Source of the DNA: a virus
Taxonomy: Duplodnaviria; Caudoviricetes
Length of the DNA stretch: 64,000 nucleotides
Virus record (IMG/VR): IMGVR_UViG_3300013426_000028
Coordinates: 31,643 to 95,642 of that record
Strand: one strand, 5' to 3'
In this document: piece after piece, positions 3,813-48,100 of the stretch
Position numbering within the stretch: the first letter of the stretch is position 1
Layout of the letters: each line of letters begins with the position of its first letter
Notes under the pieces: generated by a model
Database searches by the model: none
What the model saw: only the letters and a program-made list of their open reading frames with translations
Told to the model about the DNA's origin: nothing
Made by a program: the position numbers and the translations under genes

Positions 3813-4041
3813 CAAAAGTGTTATTAGTATTCAACCTTCTGAAAAAGAACTCTGGGATAAAGCTAACACACAAGGTTATGTGTGGATTAAGTCTGATACT
3901 GGATTTATTACTAAAGATGAATTAGATACTTATAGTAGATTAGAAACCGTATGGTATAAAGTATGGCTGCATCAAGAAGACTATGGTTCTAAATGGGCTC
4001 TGACAAGGGAGGAGTTGGAAAATGGATACAAACTTAATTAA
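3805..4041 (+). CDS. Hypothetical protein with C-terminal DYGxxWALTxEEL motif
   Basis: Motif shared with 4640..5014. Confidence 0.7.
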   Translation: MSNKSVISIQPSEKELWDKANTQGYVWIKSDTGFITKDELDTYSRLETVWYKVWLHQEDYGSKWALTREELENGYKLN

Positions 4042-4288
4042 AATTGAATTCACCTACAGGCAATGGGAAATAATATTGGATACTATAAAAAATGAATATT
4101 GTGAAAATATGGAAGTTTATAATGAGTTAAATTCAATTAGTTCTGAAACTTTATCAAAATTAGACGGTCGAGAACTAGAGGTATATAAAAATCAATTGAA
4201 TTACATAAAAACTATTGTAGAAACAAAGCAAGAAATTATATCTGTGATTAAGCAAGAATTAAAGAAAGAGGTGTTAAAAAATGATTAA
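4022..4288 (+). CDS. Hypothetical protein
   Basis: Overlapping ORF with RBS. Confidence 0.7.
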   Translation: MDTNLIKIEFTYRQWEIILDTIKNEYCENMEVYNELNSISSETLSKLDGRELEVYKNQLNYIKTIVETKQEIISVIKQELKKEVLKND

Positions 4289-42850: not shown

Positions 42851-43612
42851 TTAAAGTGTAATTTCTGTTTGAACGAATGAAGAAAGAACGGCGGGGTTAC
42901 AATCACCGATAATAATATTTTCGGAAGGGACGATAAGATGACCCTCGTGCCAAGGAAGACGGAAGCAAGCGATAGGACTGTTTGAACCAACGACTTGGAA
43001 ATCTAAGTGATAGGTATCGTGAAGTGTTTTAACTAAGCTTTCTTGAACGGAAGGTTTTTTTGTATCAAGCCCTGCTATGTAAAAGATGAACTTGCGGTCA
43101 TACTTAATCCAATGTGAATGATGAGGATTCATCGCGGCATAAACAGCGAACGAGGTAAGAAGGCGTCGAATATCTGAGGAGGTTTCTTTGTGCTCGTAAA
43201 AAGTGTTGTTTAGATTTTTAATGTCAAGAGGATTAATAAGAAGGACGCGTGAACGTGACTCTGCTACTTCGGCACGTTGGAACGCTGGGAAATAGAGAGT
43301 GGCAATACGCGAAGCCGCTTGACGTGAGAAACCTAACGAGGAGGTTAGGGCATCTTGAATTGCAAATAGCGATTCTGAAGGGGAGACAGAGCCTCCTTTG
43401 CTTTTGTAAATGTCATAGAGGAAGCGCCAGGTGTAAGGCTCAAGAGGCCCTACGAAAGTGACGCTTGGTTGTTGTTGCTGTTGCGAGGTGATGTTGTTTG
43501 TGTTATTTGTATTTGTGCTGTTATTATTACTATTATTGTTAGTACTATTATTATCTGTTGTCATAAAATTCTCAGTGGTGAAAACCATAGGCTTGCCTGT
43601 GGGAGAAACCAC
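42851..43612 (-). CDS. Hypothetical protein; ancestral start ATG 43564, with a 16-aa extension from element-derived GTG 43612
   Basis: Long ORF; the N/T/Q-rich linker begins at MTTDNN. Confidence 0.75.
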   Translation of the reverse strand: MVSPTGKPMVFTTENFMTTDNNSTNNNSNNNSTNTNNTNNITSQQQQQPSVTFVGPLEPYTWRFLYDIYKSKGGSVSPSESLFAIQDALTSSLGFSRQAASRIATLYFPAFQRAEVAESRSRVLLINPLDIKNLNNTFYEHKETSSDIRRLLTSFAVYAAMNPHHSHWIKYDRKFIFYIAGLDTKKPSVQESLVKTLHDTYHLDFQVVGSNSPIACFRLPWHEGHLIVPSENIIIGDCNPAVLSSFVQTEITL

Positions 43613-45123
43613 TTTAATCCTCCTTTTTTAACTCAATGAGTATATTTTTACGCATTTCCAACATTCTAAGTTTTTTATATCCTACGGATGCATTTACTCT
43701 AGTACCATCCAAAAGTCTTAAATCCATTCTTCCTGTAGTACGCCTACCGAAAATGAAGCAATCCTGTTGTTTCCAACGAACCCTGTCGTAAAGCCTAAAT
43801 CCCATTACTTCATAAGGCGCTTGATTTCGTTTCCGTATACCACCTTTTAGAATTGTATTCTTATGTATCTGACGATTATGACAACGTACTTTCTTTTGAT
43901 AGTACACATACTGGTCAGATACTGCTTTCGGATTACCACTGATGCACCTTGCATCTATATAATGGTCTTTTGGTAAATTGTTTTTAATGCGTGTGTTCTT
44001 TGTGATGTATCCATAAGTCAGACCGACATTTGGATACATCTCTTTTAATCTGTTGTAGAATGCCCAACGCATAATACCCATAAAAGCAGCATCTTTAAAA
44101 GGCATTCCTCTTTTAATGTTTTTAGGTAATTGAATAGTTCCATTATGATAACCGTTGTGACAGGTTTCACATAAGGTAATCAAATTATTTGGTGCATTAC
44201 CACCAGTTTTGCGGCTTTCAATATGATGAACATTCAAAATTTTATCTTTTGACTTGCCTTTACAGCATTGGCAGGTGTGTCCATCTCTGAATAAGACATA
44301 TTCTCGAACGTTCCAAAAATTCAACTGTTCACCTTCTTGATATTCTGTTCCACTAATCGTAGGGTTCTTAATTTTCTGGATATCAAAACTTGCAACTTCT
44401 ACAATTATTTGAGATACAGGTAAAATTTCATGCACTCTACTGATGACTGTCAAATGAGTATTTACTTTATTTTGCACAGAAGGTGCTAACCAACCATCTT
44501 TTCTCTTGCGATTGTCGAAACGTGGTTTTCTATACCTTGTTTTACGATTTCTACGGGTTCTACGATTTTGTCTACGAACAGACAATAAATTTACTATATC
44601 GTTTCGTAATTCTACATTCGATTCAAAAAGAACCTTATTTTTTGTAGTAGCGGAGATACCAACATGTTTACTGCCAGTATCCACACCTAAGTTAATATCT
44701 TGTGTATAGTTTGTGTTACTATACAAAAGTTGTATTGTAAACGGACATCTTTTAACTACCGTTGCCCTTTTAGATTTCAGCAGAATACGCACTTTAGCAT
44801 GGTTTTCCGTAGGCATTAAAGGCTGTCCGTTTGAGTTTAAAACATAAACCATAAACCTGTACTCCTTTCCAAATCCTAAATGGATTTAATTACTCACTCC
44901 GAAGAGTGGTCAGTGTACCATCGTCAATGTTAATAAGAGGTTTTTATATGTAACACTATTCCTATACCACAGAACTGTTTAATTACATACCTTAGAGCTA
45001 CAGACTTGGTACTACATCCGTAGATAACTATATATTCTCTAATAACGTAGCCTTTATTTCAAGGCTTAGACTACTCACTTAGGGTTGCGCAACCCCACGG
45101 GCTTACCCATGGGTATTAGTGAG
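43565..45123 (-). mobile_element. Non-autonomous IS200/IS605-family IscB (OMEGA) element, ~1559 bp
   Basis: Matching subterminal hairpins (CCATAGGCTTGCCTGTGG 43585-43602; CCCACGGGCTTACCCATGGG 45094-45113), omegaRNA plus iscB, ATGA flank, no tnpA. Confidence 0.85.
43614..44852 (-). CDS. iscB: RNA-guided endonuclease IscB
   Basis: PLMP motif, RuvC-I GVDTGS, Arg-rich bridge helix RRQNRRTRR, RuvC-II IVE, HNH (CQCC..VHHI..NLITLCETCH), RuvC-III HYIDA. Confidence 0.95.
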   Translation of the reverse strand: MVYVLNSNGQPLMPTENHAKVRILLKSKRATVVKRCPFTIQLLYSNTNYTQDINLGVDTGSKHVGISATTKNKVLFESNVELRNDIVNLLSVRRQNRRTRRNRKTRYRKPRFDNRKRKDGWLAPSVQNKVNTHLTVISRVHEILPVSQIIVEVASFDIQKIKNPTISGTEYQEGEQLNFWNVREYVLFRDGHTCQCCKGKSKDKILNVHHIESRKTGGNAPNNLITLCETCHNGYHNGTIQLPKNIKRGMPFKDAAFMGIMRWAFYNRLKEMYPNVGLTYGYITKNTRIKNNLPKDHYIDARCISGNPKAVSDQYVYYQKKVRCHNRQIHKNTILKGGIRKRNQAPYEVMGFRLYDRVRWKQQDCFIFGRRTTGRMDLRLLDGTRVNASVGYKKLRMLEMRKNILIELKKED

Positions 45124-45140
45124 TTTGAGAAGAACCTCCT
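44853..45140 (-). ncRNA. omegaRNA (HEARO-like) scaffold with 5' guide
   Basis: CTCACT/AGTGAG first stem, TAGTCTAAG, CTACGTT, GGATG..CCAAGTC..CTCT, TTAAACAG, AACATTGACGA directly upstream of iscB. Confidence 0.88.
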
Positions 45141-48100
45141 TTTATAATTTCATTATTAATAACATTATTAATATCATCTTCTATGGCATCGTGAGGGGCA
45201 AGATAGTCATCATCATAACCGAAGAGACCATTAAGCATACGTTGAATGGAGACTTCAAGTTGAGGGGTGACTTTCTTAAGGGAATATTTGACACCAAGAT
45301 ATTCGGTGCCGTTTGGATCTCTTATCGGGCAATAAGAATCGCCGTATGGAATAAGAGAAACGATTTGATCTTCTAAGACGTCCCAAGCGAATGCCCAATT
45401 GAAAGAAGAATAAAGAGGTGCTAAACGAGAGCAATAGAAGAGGAATTCATCACCAGGCATATTATGCTCAACAAGTTGATTTTGAAGGTCACCGATAAGT
45501 GATTCAATAAGAGAAGAGCGAAGCTCGGAATAGGTGTCTGGTGAGAGGTCGGAGAATTGAGAAGAAGAAAGGGACTCAAGATGTTTGATTTGTTTACGGG
45601 CAATGTAAATTTTATAAAGCGAACGAACGAAGTCTAATTTTTCCTGAGAGAAGAGGGGGGCGTAATGAGCTTCGAAAGTAGGAAGCATTGATACGTTTTT
45701 CTTCTTAACGTCGCCGTTTTTGGCAAACTTGATGTCGAAGTCAACATTCTCGAACTCGCGACATAATTTATTCATTGTGCAATTTGAGGTGATAAGGGGC
45801 GAATACTTTTGATACTTGCGAACAAGATTTGTTTCTTCTGGGGTTTTGTTTTCCTTGCGAAGGAGTTTCTTGAACTTAATACCGAACATATCGCGGCTTA
45901 CCTCGTTATAGGCGGACTCAAATTGTTTAAAGCGTTGATTAAGCTCTGGATAGAGGTAACGGAAGAAATAAGGTTTTTTGGAAATAACCATGGCATTATG
46001 TTTAAACTTTGCGAGGCGTTCTTCTGGGGTGTCGTCTTCGGTTATTTGCTCGAAATGTTTCCAAGAACGTGGGAGGGACGGCTTGTCGGCGCCCTTAATG
46101 CGGTCGATTTCTTGACCAACAATTTCACGTAAGAGCTTAATACGCGTCATAATTTCATTGTATTGATCTTGTTGCGCTGGATTATCGAAAATTGCTGCCA
46201 TTGCATAAAAGATAGTGGCGCAATTTGAGAAGCCTCCAACGCCTGTTCCGAAACCTTTGGAAACGGTTTTAGTTATGTTTGCGACCGTCATTTTTTGGAC
46301 GGGTGCAATACCTTTTTCGTATGTTATAATATTTTGTTCTTTGTGAGAACCTTTTAAGAAGCAAGGATTGTCTGTGGATAGGACTATATCTCCCGATGAT
46401 ACCCTCGGTTTCCCGATATTTATAGGAGAAGGGGACTAGACTATATCTTAACTGATTAATAACTGTTTGTGGTCATTAATCAGATGTTGGCACTTCGATT
46501 TAATGGATTTTATAATCAAGCTAATATCACCTGATAACCAACCTTGTTTAAGGGCTCTACTCTACTCATTTATTTTTAACAGATTTTCTCTATTAATATA
46601 CTTTCGATAGTCGTTTGAGTTTTTAAACCTTTTATGTAATTTGATTTAATTTACCACAGGATTGTCGTCTCCATTACGAGGTACGAGTTCCCTGTTAGCA
46701 ATGCTATTATTCGCCATTATCCTGCGAAACACTTCACGTTAGCATTACACCCAGATTTACTAATCTGGTTCACCAACTTTTACTATGACTAGTAATATAT
46801 CAATCATAGTCAGCATCGCTTAAGCGAGCTGTAGCAGCATCATATGTGCTGAATACTATTCCAGAATATAGGTGGCTTAACCACCGCTTCGCCTCATCAG
46901 AGTTTAATACGTCTGATGGGTCATGTTCGTGCATATCAATTTGAGGACTGCGACAGAGATCAACTCTCGGTACATTCCTATCGCTCCAGAATTTAGAATA
47001 TATTTGATCTCTTCCAACTACCCCTATTGGTTCTAATCCTAACGCCGACTGACATTGAGCAACAGGGTCGGACAGCATAAACTGGTAGTTACCATGAACC
47101 CAGATTTTGCCTATCTTGGCACGATTAATTGTTTCAGTAATATTTTTATAGATTTTATGTTGTATATAACTATCTTTAAGGAAGTTGTTGTTTTTAACTA
47201 AAGCCTTCATATAATTTGTTTGAGCGGTTCCATAAAGAGTATTAAACATAGAGTCTTCGTTTTTGGGCCCAAATGTAAATAGAAGTGTTGAGAGAGTCTC
47301 ACCTGTACAAATTTGTTTTATCCAATCTACAGTTGGTTTAATTAAATTCTTTATGTCATCATCAGATAATGTTAATGATTGAATGTATTGATAATTAGCA
47401 AGAATATATTCTTCGTCTTGTTTTTTTGGATAACGTGCAACTCCCCAAGGAATATCTCCCTTTTCTGCGTAAGATAGATATTCTTGCCAGCTGTTATAAT
47501 ATTTGTGCGTTTTGAATTGTGATTCTGAAAGAAGAACATCTATTTCATCAATATTATATTCCTTCCCCCATTTATCACGAATTGTCGAAATGCCTTGTTC
47601 GTGAGCATAACCTCTAAAATCAAATGTCACAAGATTCCCTTTTACGAAAGCAGAACGAGCCACGAATGAACAAGGTGTATAAGAGAGATCCATATCTTGT
47701 CCCCATAGTGTGGCAAATGAAGGATCGATTAACCCTTGTCCATCTGCACAGTTGAGGTCTAAGTCCATTACTCTTTTTTCAATGATAGATTCTCCTTTGT
47801 CGTTTTTACAAATGAAATCAACAGGTTCATCTTTTAAAGTTCTGTGGAAATCTTTAATAACACATACTCTTGGTGTTCTTACCCATAAAACAGAAGAGAA
47901 GGATAAGGCGAAATATGCGGTATACTTTGCTAACACGAATTCTGTTGTTTTTTTATCCAAACCACAATTTAATGTTTCTACTACTTGTTTACGATATTTT
48001 GTGTTAATAAATGTGGCGGTGTTTCGTCTAATTTGACCTGACCCGCTGCATAAATATGAATAGTGAACTCCGTTACACACAAATCCTTTTGTTCTTATTG

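What the first reader, a model, noticed from the sequence alone, without database searches (positions are those of the whole stretch)
43561..45140. IscB element inserted exactly between an RBS and its start codon, repairing both neighbours
Seen: removing 43565-45123 gives ...AAAGGAGGTTCTTCTCAAA|ATGACAACAGATAA, an RBS 11 nt before the ATG of the downstream gene, with the RNAP frame ending four codons later. So the guide is the RBS region and the TAM is ATGA, the start codon itself (ATGA is a known IscB TAM). The insertion is compensated at both ends. The omegaRNA end supplies a stop for the RNAP gene (ACT CAC TAA). The iscB 3' end supplies AAGGAGG and a GTG at 43612 that reads through the terminal hairpin for 16 codons in frame into the original ATG. 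Inference: an element whose end donates a translation start can land silently at any ATGA start codon, an alternative to IStron splicing. It could also cut element-free competitor phages in an essential operon.
Basis: partly seen in the sequence, partly recalled or inferred. Interest (0 to 1): 0.82.

Follow-up and report, generated by a model that had tools for sequence, protein, structure and literature searches.

The report
IscB transposon parked on start codon
A 1.56-kb selfish element carrying the Cas9 ancestor IscB and its guide RNA sits exactly between the ribosome-binding site and the start codon of a phage gene; a natural element-free copy confirms the junction, and this element family lands on start codons far more often than chance.

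Summary
Observation confirmed. Window 45123->43565 (minus strand, 1,559 nt) is a complete non-autonomous ISC/OMEGA element. It has a full-length HEARO omegaRNA (111 bits) and a 412-aa IscB with all RuvC/HNH catalytic residues.

A natural empty allele (metagenome contig L101, flanks 92%/84% identical) joins 45124 directly to 43564. The guide is the SD region and the TAM is the start codon. N|ATGA is a published ISC target.

Across 49 independent sister insertions:
- The TAM is ATGA in 45.
- The TAM ATG opens an ORF of 50 or more codons in 33 (null 21%).
- It is that ORF's first ATG in 25 (null 9%).
- The guide holds an SD core in 21 (null 15%).

So parking on start codons is family-wide.

The "repair" claims are weaker. 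Any frame entering the omegaRNA stops within 2-15 codons. The in-frame GTG is not conserved.

Two other features recur. An SD-like AAGGAG lies at the iscB 3' end, at the foot of the terminal hairpin, and is held at the nucleotide level. At 19 of 51 sites the iscB stop overlaps or abuts the host ATG.

This scan noted similar insertions in at least 11 other genomes.

The parts
45124..45143 (-). Guide source: the 20 nt of 5' flank read into the omegaRNA 5' end. It holds the native SD of the downstream gene (GGAGG core 45139-45135), 11 nt before the junction. It is also the last codons of the RNAP-like ORF.
   Evidence: Sequence. Identical over at least 31 nt in empty allele L101, where ATGA follows directly.
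44909..45123 (-). omegaRNA scaffold (HEARO), which is also the element's 5' end. Its first 8 nt give the upstream ORF two new codons (TH) and a TAA stop (45118-45116).
   Evidence: Rfam RF02033, 111.3 bits, model 1-211 of 211. Sister homology starts at 45123.
43614..44852 (-). iscB gene (412 aa): RuvC split by HNH. The residues that align with the OgeuIscB catalytic positions are conserved (DTG, VEV, HH..N..H, DHYID). Its own SD lies at about 44870-44862.
   Evidence: Pfam RRXRR 1.7e-68 plus HNH. PDB IscB chains E=5e-50, with alignment.
43565..43625 (-). Element 3' end. It holds an SD-like AAGGAGG (43625-43619), the iscB stop (43616-43614), a GTG (43612-43610), a subterminal imperfect hairpin (outer stem 43613-43608 with 43579-43574), and a 9-nt tail ending at 43565.
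   Evidence: Sequence. Fold at -13.7 to -15.7 kcal/mol. The same architecture occurs in sisters.
43561..43564 (-). TAM ATGA. It contains the native start codon of the downstream gene.
   Evidence: Empty allele L101. ATGA follows 45 of 49 sister elements. Relative L007 starts MTDKNN at the equivalent ATG.
42851..43564 (-). Downstream gene: 237 aa from the native ATG, with an N-rich N-terminus and no family hit. It would be 253 aa if started at the GTG at 43612.
   Evidence: ORF list. No Pfam or PHROG hit. Homologue directly follows the RNAP-like gene in 10 relatives.
45116..46291 (-). Last exon or C-terminal part of the RNAP-like gene. Insertion changed its C-terminus from ..SSQNDNR to ..SSQTH.
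   Evidence: PHROG 8308 positions 604-723 here and 70-552 in ORF 48470->46800, which also hits Pfam RdRP PF05183. L101 translation.

Best explanation
The segment 45123->43565 is a non-autonomous ISC-type IS200/IS605 element, consisting only of an omegaRNA and iscB. It inserted without target duplication at an N|ATGA site. That site is the junction between the Shine-Dalgarno sequence and the start codon of the gene following the phage's RNAP-like gene.

Shown:
- The element's identity and exact boundaries.
- An element-free allele in a related phage whose sequence matches the guide (at least 20 nt) plus the TAM.
- Intact IscB catalytic residues.
- A strong family-wide excess of insertions at start-codon ATGA sites.

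Inferred:
- Read-through transcription from the RNAP-like gene makes an omegaRNA whose 5' guide is the SD region.
- IscB-omegaRNA cuts element-free genomes at SD|ATGA during co-infection. The break is repaired from the occupied genome (homing), or the competitor is damaged.
- Transposition to new ATGA sites needs a Y1 TnpA supplied in trans, because the contig has none.
- Start codons dominate because, in a gene-dense phage, an ATGA at a gene start is the one class of TAM where both ORFs stay whole.
- That tolerance depends on the element's 3' end being able to support translation of an abutting ATG.

The conserved candidates for this last role are two. One is an SD-like AAGGAG kept at the nucleotide level at the foot of the terminal hairpin; folding leaves about 9-12 unpaired nt between it and the host ATG in most sisters and 15 in this copy. 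The other is an iscB stop that overlaps or abuts the ATG.

In this copy iscB stops at the hairpin foot, and a GTG lies 1 nt later and 6 nt after AAGGAGG. Initiation may therefore occur at that GTG (adding 16 aa), at the native ATG, or at both.
For: - Identity.
- Boundaries and empty allele.
- Synteny: ten relatives at 47-61% aa identity all have the two genes adjacent, with the SD inside the upstream C-terminus.
- Start-codon bias: TAM ATGA at 45/49 sites. ORF of 50 or more codons at 33/49 against 21% for 1,607 other ATGA sites in the same flanks (p=7e-12). First ATG of the ORF at 25/49 against 9.4% (p=1e-13). In the subset with boundaries set only by homology breaks: 12/19 and 11/19.
- SD core in the last 20 nt of the guide at 21/49 against 15% (p=2e-6), with a 4-11 nt spacer in 18 of the 21 (two at 0 nt, one at 13).
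- AGG is used at 22/23 of the Arg codons in the C-terminal E-R-R motif. It makes up 18% of iscB Arg codons overall and at most 43% at any of 28 conserved Arg columns.
- The AAGGAGG letters are kept in the window and in L014 although they are read in different frames.
- With the hairpin folded, 9-12 unpaired nt separate AGGAG from the ATG in 21/37 hairpin-bearing sites, although the linear distance is 53-103 nt.
- The iscB stop lies within 10 nt of the ATG, or overlaps it, at 19/51 sites.
- No Y1 transposase in the contig.
- N|ATGA is a published ISC target (PMC4810608). IscB elements are co-oriented with upstream genes (Meers et al. preprint).
Against: - Nothing about expression, cleavage or homing was measured.
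- Only one occupied allele of this site is known, and its nearest empty relative is 8-16% diverged. The age and route of the insertion (transposition or homing) are open.
- The window's hairpin is no more stable than shuffled sequence (z=-0.19).
- Its folded SD-to-ATG spacing (15 nt) is longer than in most sisters.
- The AAGGAG motif could serve some other DNA or RNA role.
- 16 of 49 sister insertions are not at long ORFs, so start codons are preferred rather than obligatory.
- About half of the sister 3' boundaries were assigned by structure or inspection on the assumption that an ATG follows. The objective subset gives the same answer at lower power.
- One sister pair (L039 against empties L093-L097) differs by an unexplained 8 nt at the junction.
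Confidence: 0.75

Rival explanations
1. The element end has evolved an in-frame RBS-GTG. The downstream protein is made as an N-terminally extended fusion (16 extra residues read through the hairpin), and this is the general trick that makes start-codon landing silent.
For: - In the window, AAGGAGG is 6 nt from the GTG at 43612.
- The GTG lies 1 nt after the iscB stop, which favours re-initiation.
- 16 codons are open into the ATG.
- L051 has a similar in-frame GTG at -17 overlapping its iscB stop.
- The N-terminus of the downstream protein is low-complexity and probably tolerant.
Against: - It is not conserved. L012, L013 and L015 have no in-frame start.
- L022, L031, L037, L048, L049, L057 and L081 have an in-frame stop 0-2 codons before the ATG, yet the ATG opens ORFs of 55-480 codons.
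- In the window's clade one of the two other frames (f2) is about as open as the ATG frame.
- The GTG sits in the covarying outer stem, so it changes with the stem.
Confidence: 0.3
2. Pure survivorship with no compensation. ATGA start codons are simply the only TAM sites that break no ORF. The downstream gene is translated less well or by SD-independent initiation on the A/U-rich tail. The AAGGAG motif is unrelated to host-gene translation.
For: - The element tail before the ATG is A/T-rich in nearly all sisters and carries no SD within 12 nt.
- 16/49 insertions are at non-genic ATGA sites.
- The AGGAG motif is about as frequent in elements at non-genic sites (7/14) as at genic sites (19/27).
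Against: - AGG is fixed at the motif (22/23) while synonymous sites elsewhere are saturated.
- The motif is retained across a frame change.
- Stop/start overlap (ATGA, TGATG) recurs at 12 sites.
- Two cases (L039; L062 against L074) show short ATGA-to-ATGA deletions that bring the real start flush with the element end.
Confidence: 0.3
3. The element is kept mainly because it benefits the phage. It acts as an RNA-guided weapon against closely related element-free phages, cutting them in an essential late or early operon. This is analogous to marker exclusion by free-standing homing endonucleases.
For: - An element-free relative with a perfect target exists.
- IscB looks catalytically intact.
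- 255 related iscB genes lie in viral contigs, and several contigs carry two.
- A review describes such 'non-restorative homing' as theoretically possible (PMC13565253).
Against: - There is no co-infection or fitness data.
- Homing and competitor killing cannot be separated by sequence.
- The short-end subgroup has lost the terminal hairpin but keeps iscB, which fits either reading.
Confidence: 0.25
4. Assembly chimera, or a bacterial IS mis-joined into a viral contig.
For: Only one occupied copy of this site was found.
Against: - Both junctions are base-exact relative to an independent empty allele.
- 80 sister elements lie inside viral contigs with the same architecture.
Confidence: 0.02

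Closest known systems
ISC transposons with the N|ATGA target site (ISC1-1_MA of Microcystis, ISC2-1_HM, ISC2-1_MS; Kapitonov, Makarova & Koonin 2016, PMC4810608)
   Same: - Non-autonomous element about 1.3-1.7 kb long, encoding only IscB.
- Conserved 5' terminus: GTCA in the published families and in most sisters here, CTCA in this element and its closest sisters.
- Subterminal hairpins and no target duplication.
- Inserted immediately 5' of ATGA, as shown by empty-site comparison.
   Different: - That paper does not relate ATGA sites to start codons; 'start codon' does not occur in its text.
- Its examples are bacterial chromosomes, not phages.
- The start-codon bias and the 3'-end features are not described there.
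IscB-omegaRNA OMEGA nucleases (OgeuIscB, PDB 7UTN/7XHT) and the HEARO RNA, Rfam RF02033
   Same: - RuvC/HNH protein with aligned catalytic residues.
- omegaRNA directly upstream on the same strand.
- Guide taken from the 5' flank and TAM 3' of the target.
   Different: - This protein is shorter (412 aa against 496 aa).
- The alignment to OgeuIscB ends at about residue 329, so the C-terminal TAM-reading part differs.
- Activity and TAM were not tested for this protein.
G. stearothermophilus IS200/IS605 IscB/TnpB elements that bias their inheritance by guide-directed cleavage and recombination (Meers et al., bioRxiv 10.1101/2023.03.14.532601)
   Same: - The guide matches the element-free site.
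- The element is co-oriented with the upstream gene, so the guide is transcribed by read-through.
   Different: - Those elements coexist with TnpA in a bacterial chromosome and home to the sister chromosome.
- Here no TnpA is present, and the likely target is a co-infecting phage.
IStrons (group I intron fused to an IS200/IS605 TnpB element)
   Same: Both are ways for an OMEGA element to sit in essential transcription units without destroying the host gene.
   Different: - The only Rfam match within the element is HEARO, so it has no detectable intron.
- Neutrality would come from the choice of position (the SD|ATG junction) and from translation signals, not from splicing.
Free-standing homing endonucleases of T-even phages (SegF, SegB; intronless homing and marker exclusion, reviewed in PMC13565253)
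   Same: A nuclease gene lies between two conserved phage genes, and its target is the uninterrupted junction in related phages.
   Different: - Recognition here is by RNA guide plus TAM, not by protein.
- The element has transposon ends.
Hairpin-bridged ('split') ribosome-binding sites of phage T4 genes 38 and 25 (from my own knowledge, not checked here)
   Same: An SD and a start codon are far apart in sequence, and a stable hairpin brings them to working distance.
   Different: The comparison is purely an analogy. No experiment exists for IscB element ends.

Membership tests
ISC / IscB-omegaRNA element (IS200/IS605 superfamily) | IscB protein: arginine-rich RRXRR/RuvC domain with an inserted HNH, catalytic residues present | tested here: met
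   Pfam PF14239 at 230 bits and PF01844 at 33 bits. PDB IscB chains E=5e-50. D, E, HNH His/Asn/His and DHY(I/L)D align with OgeuIscB.
ISC / IscB-omegaRNA element (IS200/IS605 superfamily) | omegaRNA (HEARO) directly upstream of iscB on the same strand | tested here: met
   RF02033 at 111.3 bits against a gathering score of 83, full model, 45123->44909.
ISC / IscB-omegaRNA element (IS200/IS605 superfamily) | Insertion at a specific 4-bp target without target-site duplication and without terminal inverted repeats; subterminal hairpins | tested here: met
   Empty allele L101 joins 45124 to 43564 with nothing duplicated or lost. Hairpins are present at both ends.
ISC / IscB-omegaRNA element (IS200/IS605 superfamily) | Guide (5' flank) plus TAM equals the element-free site | tested here: met
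   At least 31 nt of 5' flank is identical in L101 and is followed by ATGA.
ISC / IscB-omegaRNA element (IS200/IS605 superfamily) | RNA-guided, TAM-dependent DNA cleavage | not testable with these tools
   Needs a biochemical or plasmid-interference assay.
ISC / IscB-omegaRNA element (IS200/IS605 superfamily) | Mobilisation by a Y1 (TnpA) transposase | tested here: inconclusive
   No PF01797 match in the 95.6-kb contig, which is estimated 69% complete. TnpA could be supplied by the host.
IStron | Group I intron ribozyme forming the body of the element, so that it splices out of the host mRNA | tested here: not met
   The only Rfam match in 43000-45700 at E<=1 is HEARO.
Homing endonuclease gene (functional class) | Biased inheritance in crosses with element-free genomes | not testable with these tools
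   Only the existence of a matching target in a natural relative is shown.

The most novel reading that the evidence does not exclude
Phage-borne IscB elements with the ATGA TAM are specialised 'start-codon parkers'. Their 3' end is a portable translation-initiation module, which takes one of two forms. One is a nucleotide-conserved SD placed at the foot of the transposon-end hairpin, so that folding sets it about 10 nt from whatever ATG the element lands on. The other is an iscB frame that ends in the TAM itself (ATGA or TGATG stop/start overlap). Either form would let a Cas9-ancestor nuclease insert harmlessly into essential, tightly packed phage operons and then home into, or kill, element-free relatives. 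This would be a third route to harmless insertion, beside intron splicing (IStrons) and intergenic insertion.
Probability: 0.4. Interest if true: 0.78.

Novelty: new variant of a known kind. Interest (0 to 1): 0.62.

Why it matters
IscB/TnpB elements are the ancestors of Cas9 and Cas12. How they persist in compact genomes is an active question, and the known answer for essential genes is the IStron (splicing).

This case comes with a base-exact natural empty allele. The 49-site survey behind it points to another answer. The TAM ATGA doubles as a start codon, so the element can sit between the SD and the ATG, leave both ORFs whole, and use the SD region as its guide.

If the conserved AAGGAG-plus-hairpin or the stop/start overlap really drives translation of the host gene, that would be a compact natural 'insert anywhere at a start codon' cassette. 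It would also be a clear example of a transposon end shaped by translation as well as by transposition.

The case also provides a concrete natural target/nuclease pair (window element against the L101-type phage) for testing RNA-guided homing between phages.

Tried and rejected
- The exact empty-junction pattern was absent from IMG/VR viral contigs. It was then found in metagenome contigs.
No read-level check of junctions or of mixed alleles was possible.
- BLAST of the region against GenBank phages gave only weak iscB/HEARO hits.
- The element is single-copy in its own contig.
- Homologues of the upstream protein reach only 67% identity at most in the 5.8-billion-protein set. No closer occupied or empty relatives came from that route.
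- Downstream ORFs of sisters L013, L014 and L081 have no other copies in viral contigs. L039's does, but its empties differ by 8 nt at the junction.
- Automatic calling of sister 3' ends by exact outer-stem search or a two-helix search was too noisy. I replaced it with homology-break calls (objective), a shared-motif call for the hairpin-less subgroup, and structure or inspection calls, each flagged.
- Six loci with degenerate ends were left out (L044, L045, L050, L056, L060, L066), and two without an anchor (L047, L055).
- The promoter/terminator scan showed nothing above shuffles.
- Literature searches found no paper linking IscB or ISC insertion to start codons. Weinberg 2009 and Altae-Tran 2021 are not held, so I cannot exclude a remark there.
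- I first took the phage for crAss-like because of the Pfam RdRP hit. I dropped that label as untested.
Full report
**What is there**

All relevant genes lie on the minus strand. Reading 5'->3' on that strand:
- An ORF at 46291->45116 ends ..IKGGSSQTH.
- Rfam's HEARO model (RF02033, the RNA now known as the IscB omegaRNA) matches 45123->44909 at 111.3 bits (gathering score 83). It matches over its full length, with model position 1 on base 45123.
- A 412-aa ORF at 44852->43614 carries Pfam RRXRR (1.7e-68) and HNH.
- This ORF matches solved IscB structures at E=5e-50. The RuvC Asp, the RuvC Glu, the HNH His/Asn/His and the DHY(I/L)D motif all align.
- After the iscB stop (43616-43614) comes a 49-nt tail with an imperfect hairpin.
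- The ATG at 43564 opens a 237-codon ORF.

**The empty allele**

- The 27-nt junction word is absent from IMG/VR. It occurs once in the metagenome collection, in contig ULVD01093484.1 (L101).
- L101 aligns without gaps to window 46579->45124 at 92% identity. It then continues directly into 43564->42850 (84% over the part BLAST aligned).
- Nothing is duplicated or missing at the joint.
- In L101 the upstream ORF ends ..GGSSQNDNR, four codons past the ATG, as predicted.
- At least 31 nt of the 5' flank are identical between L101 and the window. The window's guide plus the ATGA TAM therefore matches this natural relative perfectly.
- Independent support for the boundaries comes from the four closest sister elements (78-83% nt identity, each at a different site). 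They align from 45123 to just past ATGA(C) and no further.
- Ten more distant relatives of the phage (47-61% aa) have the two genes adjacent. In these the SD lies inside the upstream C-terminus, and the start overlaps or is near the stop.

**What kind of element**

It is 1,559 nt long and holds only an omegaRNA and iscB. It has hairpins at both ends, makes no target duplication, and inserts 5' of ATGA. This is the ISC class of Kapitonov et al. 2016, who documented N|ATGA targets and the GTCA 5' terminus from empty sites in bacteria (PMC4810608). The contig has no Y1 transposase. The element is single-copy there.

The upstream gene is RNAP-like. ORF 48470->46800 hits Pfam RdRP (PF05183). Both ORFs hit consecutive parts of PHROG 8308. 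They are separated by a ~500-nt ORF-free gap with a weak group I intron match (19 bits, below threshold).

**Is start-codon landing a family trait?**

- 255 related iscB genes lie in viral contigs. I took the best 80 (63-85% aa identity). A full-length HEARO reached Rfam's gathering score upstream of iscB in 73 of them; six hairpin-less loci (L069, L071, L073, L087, L091) and L047 gave no hit at that threshold.
- I set 3' ends in three ways. The first used the point where homology to sisters at other sites stops (objective). The second used a shared motif in a hairpin-less subgroup. The third used structure or inspection, and these calls are flagged.
- This gave 51 distinct sites, 49 of them with both boundaries.
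- The TAM is ATGA at 45, ATGG at 3 and ATAA at 1.
- The TAM ATG opens an ORF of at least 50 codons at 33/49. The rate for 1,607 other ATGA sites in the same flanks is 21% (p=7e-12).
- In the reconstructed empty site it is the first ATG of that ORF at 25/49, against 9.4% (p=1e-13).
- The homology-break subset alone gives 12/19 and 11/19 (p=1e-4 and 2e-7).
- The last 20 nt of the 5' flank (the guide) hold a GGAG/GAGG/AGGA core at 21/49, against 15% in controls (p=2e-6). The spacer is 4-11 nt in 18 of those 21; it is 0 nt in two and 13 nt in one. The core is found at 18/33 sites with an ORF against 3/16 without.

**Are the neighbours 'repaired'?**

Upstream: the scaffold's first bases stop the three possible incoming frames after 2, 6 and 15 codons (sequence). 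A prompt stop is therefore guaranteed rather than designed. Here four residues (NDNR) are replaced by two (TH).

Downstream: the ORF and its ATG are untouched, but the SD is now 1.56 kb away.

The in-frame GTG is not conserved.
- In the window's own clade only the window and L051 have a start at that place.
- L012, L013 and L015 have no in-frame start at all. L013 and L015 are followed by ORFs of 366 and 99 codons.
- L031, L037 and L081 have a stop codon directly before the ATG.
- L022, L048, L049 and L057 have one within two codons.
- In the window's clade one of the two other frames (f2) is about as open as the ATG frame, so the openness is not specific to the ATG frame.

It stays possible for this copy, because the GTG lies 1 nt after the iscB stop and 6 nt after a strong SD.

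**What is conserved at the 3' end**

First, an SD-like motif.
- The last conserved iscB codons (E-R-R) are written GAA AGG AGR.
- AGG is used at 22 of 23 Arg codons there. It is 18% of all iscB Arg codons and never exceeds 43% at 28 other conserved Arg columns, whose synonymous sites are thoroughly mixed.
- The window and L014 keep the letters AAGGAGG although they read them in different frames.
- The constraint is therefore on nucleotides, not on protein.

Second, its position.
- The motif sits at the foot of the terminal hairpin(s), and the ATG sits 7-10 nt past the other foot.
- With the hairpin folded, 9-12 unpaired nt separate AGGAG from the ATG at 21 of 37 hairpin-bearing sites. The linear distance there ranges from 53 to 103 nt.
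- The window has 15 unpaired nt.

Third, stop/start coupling.
- At 19 of 51 sites the iscB stop lies within 10 nt of the ATG.
- At 11 of those the stop is the TGA of the ATGA TAM (or TAA where the TAM has mutated to ATAA). One site has a TGATG overlap.

I read these as alternative ways in which the element end keeps an abutting ATG translatable. This is inference, and no expression data exist.

**Two oddities at sister sites**

- Empty alleles of sister L039 (L093-L097, 98% identical in the downstream gene) carry 8 extra nt, which start with ATGA, between the 5' flank and the start codon.
- L074 and L062 share a 5' flank but differ by 12 nt that again run from one ATGA to the next.

Both look like short deletions that bring the real start flush with the element end. 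I cannot show this.

**How it most likely works**

- Read-through from the RNAP-like gene transcribes the guide (the SD region) and the scaffold.
- IscB-omegaRNA recognises SD-region|ATGA in element-free genomes such as L101 and cuts them.
- Repair from the occupied genome copies the element in, or the competitor is lost.
- New sites require TnpA in trans.
- Survivorship in a gene-dense genome, helped by a translation-competent 3' end, explains the concentration on start codons.

**Known or new**

Already published:
- IscB, the omegaRNA and the N|ATGA target.
- Co-orientation of IscB elements with upstream genes.

I found no paper that links ISC/IscB insertion to start codons or describes translation signals in the element end. 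Two key papers are not in the library. Earlier notes of this scan describe the same arrangement in at least 11 other genomes. Within the scan it is therefore recurrent, which fits the family-wide statistics here.

**Verdict**

- The element itself is an ordinary member of a known family.
- The start-codon parking habit and the conserved 3'-end signals are a new variant worth an experiment.

Noticed in passing
window 46292-46799 (minus strand): The RNAP-like gene is split into two ORFs (48470->46800 and 46291->45116) that hit consecutive parts of PHROG 8308. The ~500-nt ORF-free gap between them gives a weak group I intron match (RF00028, 19 bits, E=0.025, below gathering). Empty-allele contig L101 also covers the 3' part of this gap (window 46292-46579).
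   Followed up: partly
L005:~4229-4231 and L006:~3848-3850: Homologues of the upstream gene in two related viral contigs have an in-frame TGA where the window encodes Trp (..LPRSWKHF..). This suggests TGA=Trp recoding in those phages.
   Followed up: no
L058-L091 (hairpin-less subgroup); L074, L082 as intermediates: A large subgroup of sister elements has lost the 3' terminal hairpin. iscB then ends in the TGA of the ATGA TAM. L082 keeps only the outer stem and L074 keeps the whole hairpin. These copies are probably immobile for TnpA but still carry an intact iscB.
   Followed up: partly
L063 vs L072/L076 (same 5' flank, different 3' flank); L063/L070/L084 (same 3' gene, different 5' flanks): In the hairpin-less subgroup the 5' and 3' flanks are shuffled among contigs, as if the element marks a recombination junction between phage modules.
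   Followed up: no
L072, L076, L077 3' junction: The TAM has mutated from ATGA to ATAA at otherwise homologous junctions. This removes both the start codon and the TAM.
   Followed up: no
L093-L097 vs L039/L092 junction; L074 vs L062: Occupied and empty (or differently occupied) alleles differ by 8 nt and 12 nt. Each segment runs from one ATGA to the next ATGA. This is unexplained and may be secondary deletions.
   Followed up: partly
L019:488-1178: A full ROOL RNA (304 bits) and a tRNA lie directly upstream of an IscB element in a 132-kb viral contig.
   Followed up: no
L026:804-1038 and 1249-1457: Two HEARO scaffolds lie in tandem upstream of one iscB: a solo omegaRNA followed by a full element.
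   Followed up: no
L039:717-779; L080:1806-3142: A RAGATH-30 RNA lies upstream of one sister element. An array of six tRNA genes lies directly downstream of another.
   Followed up: no
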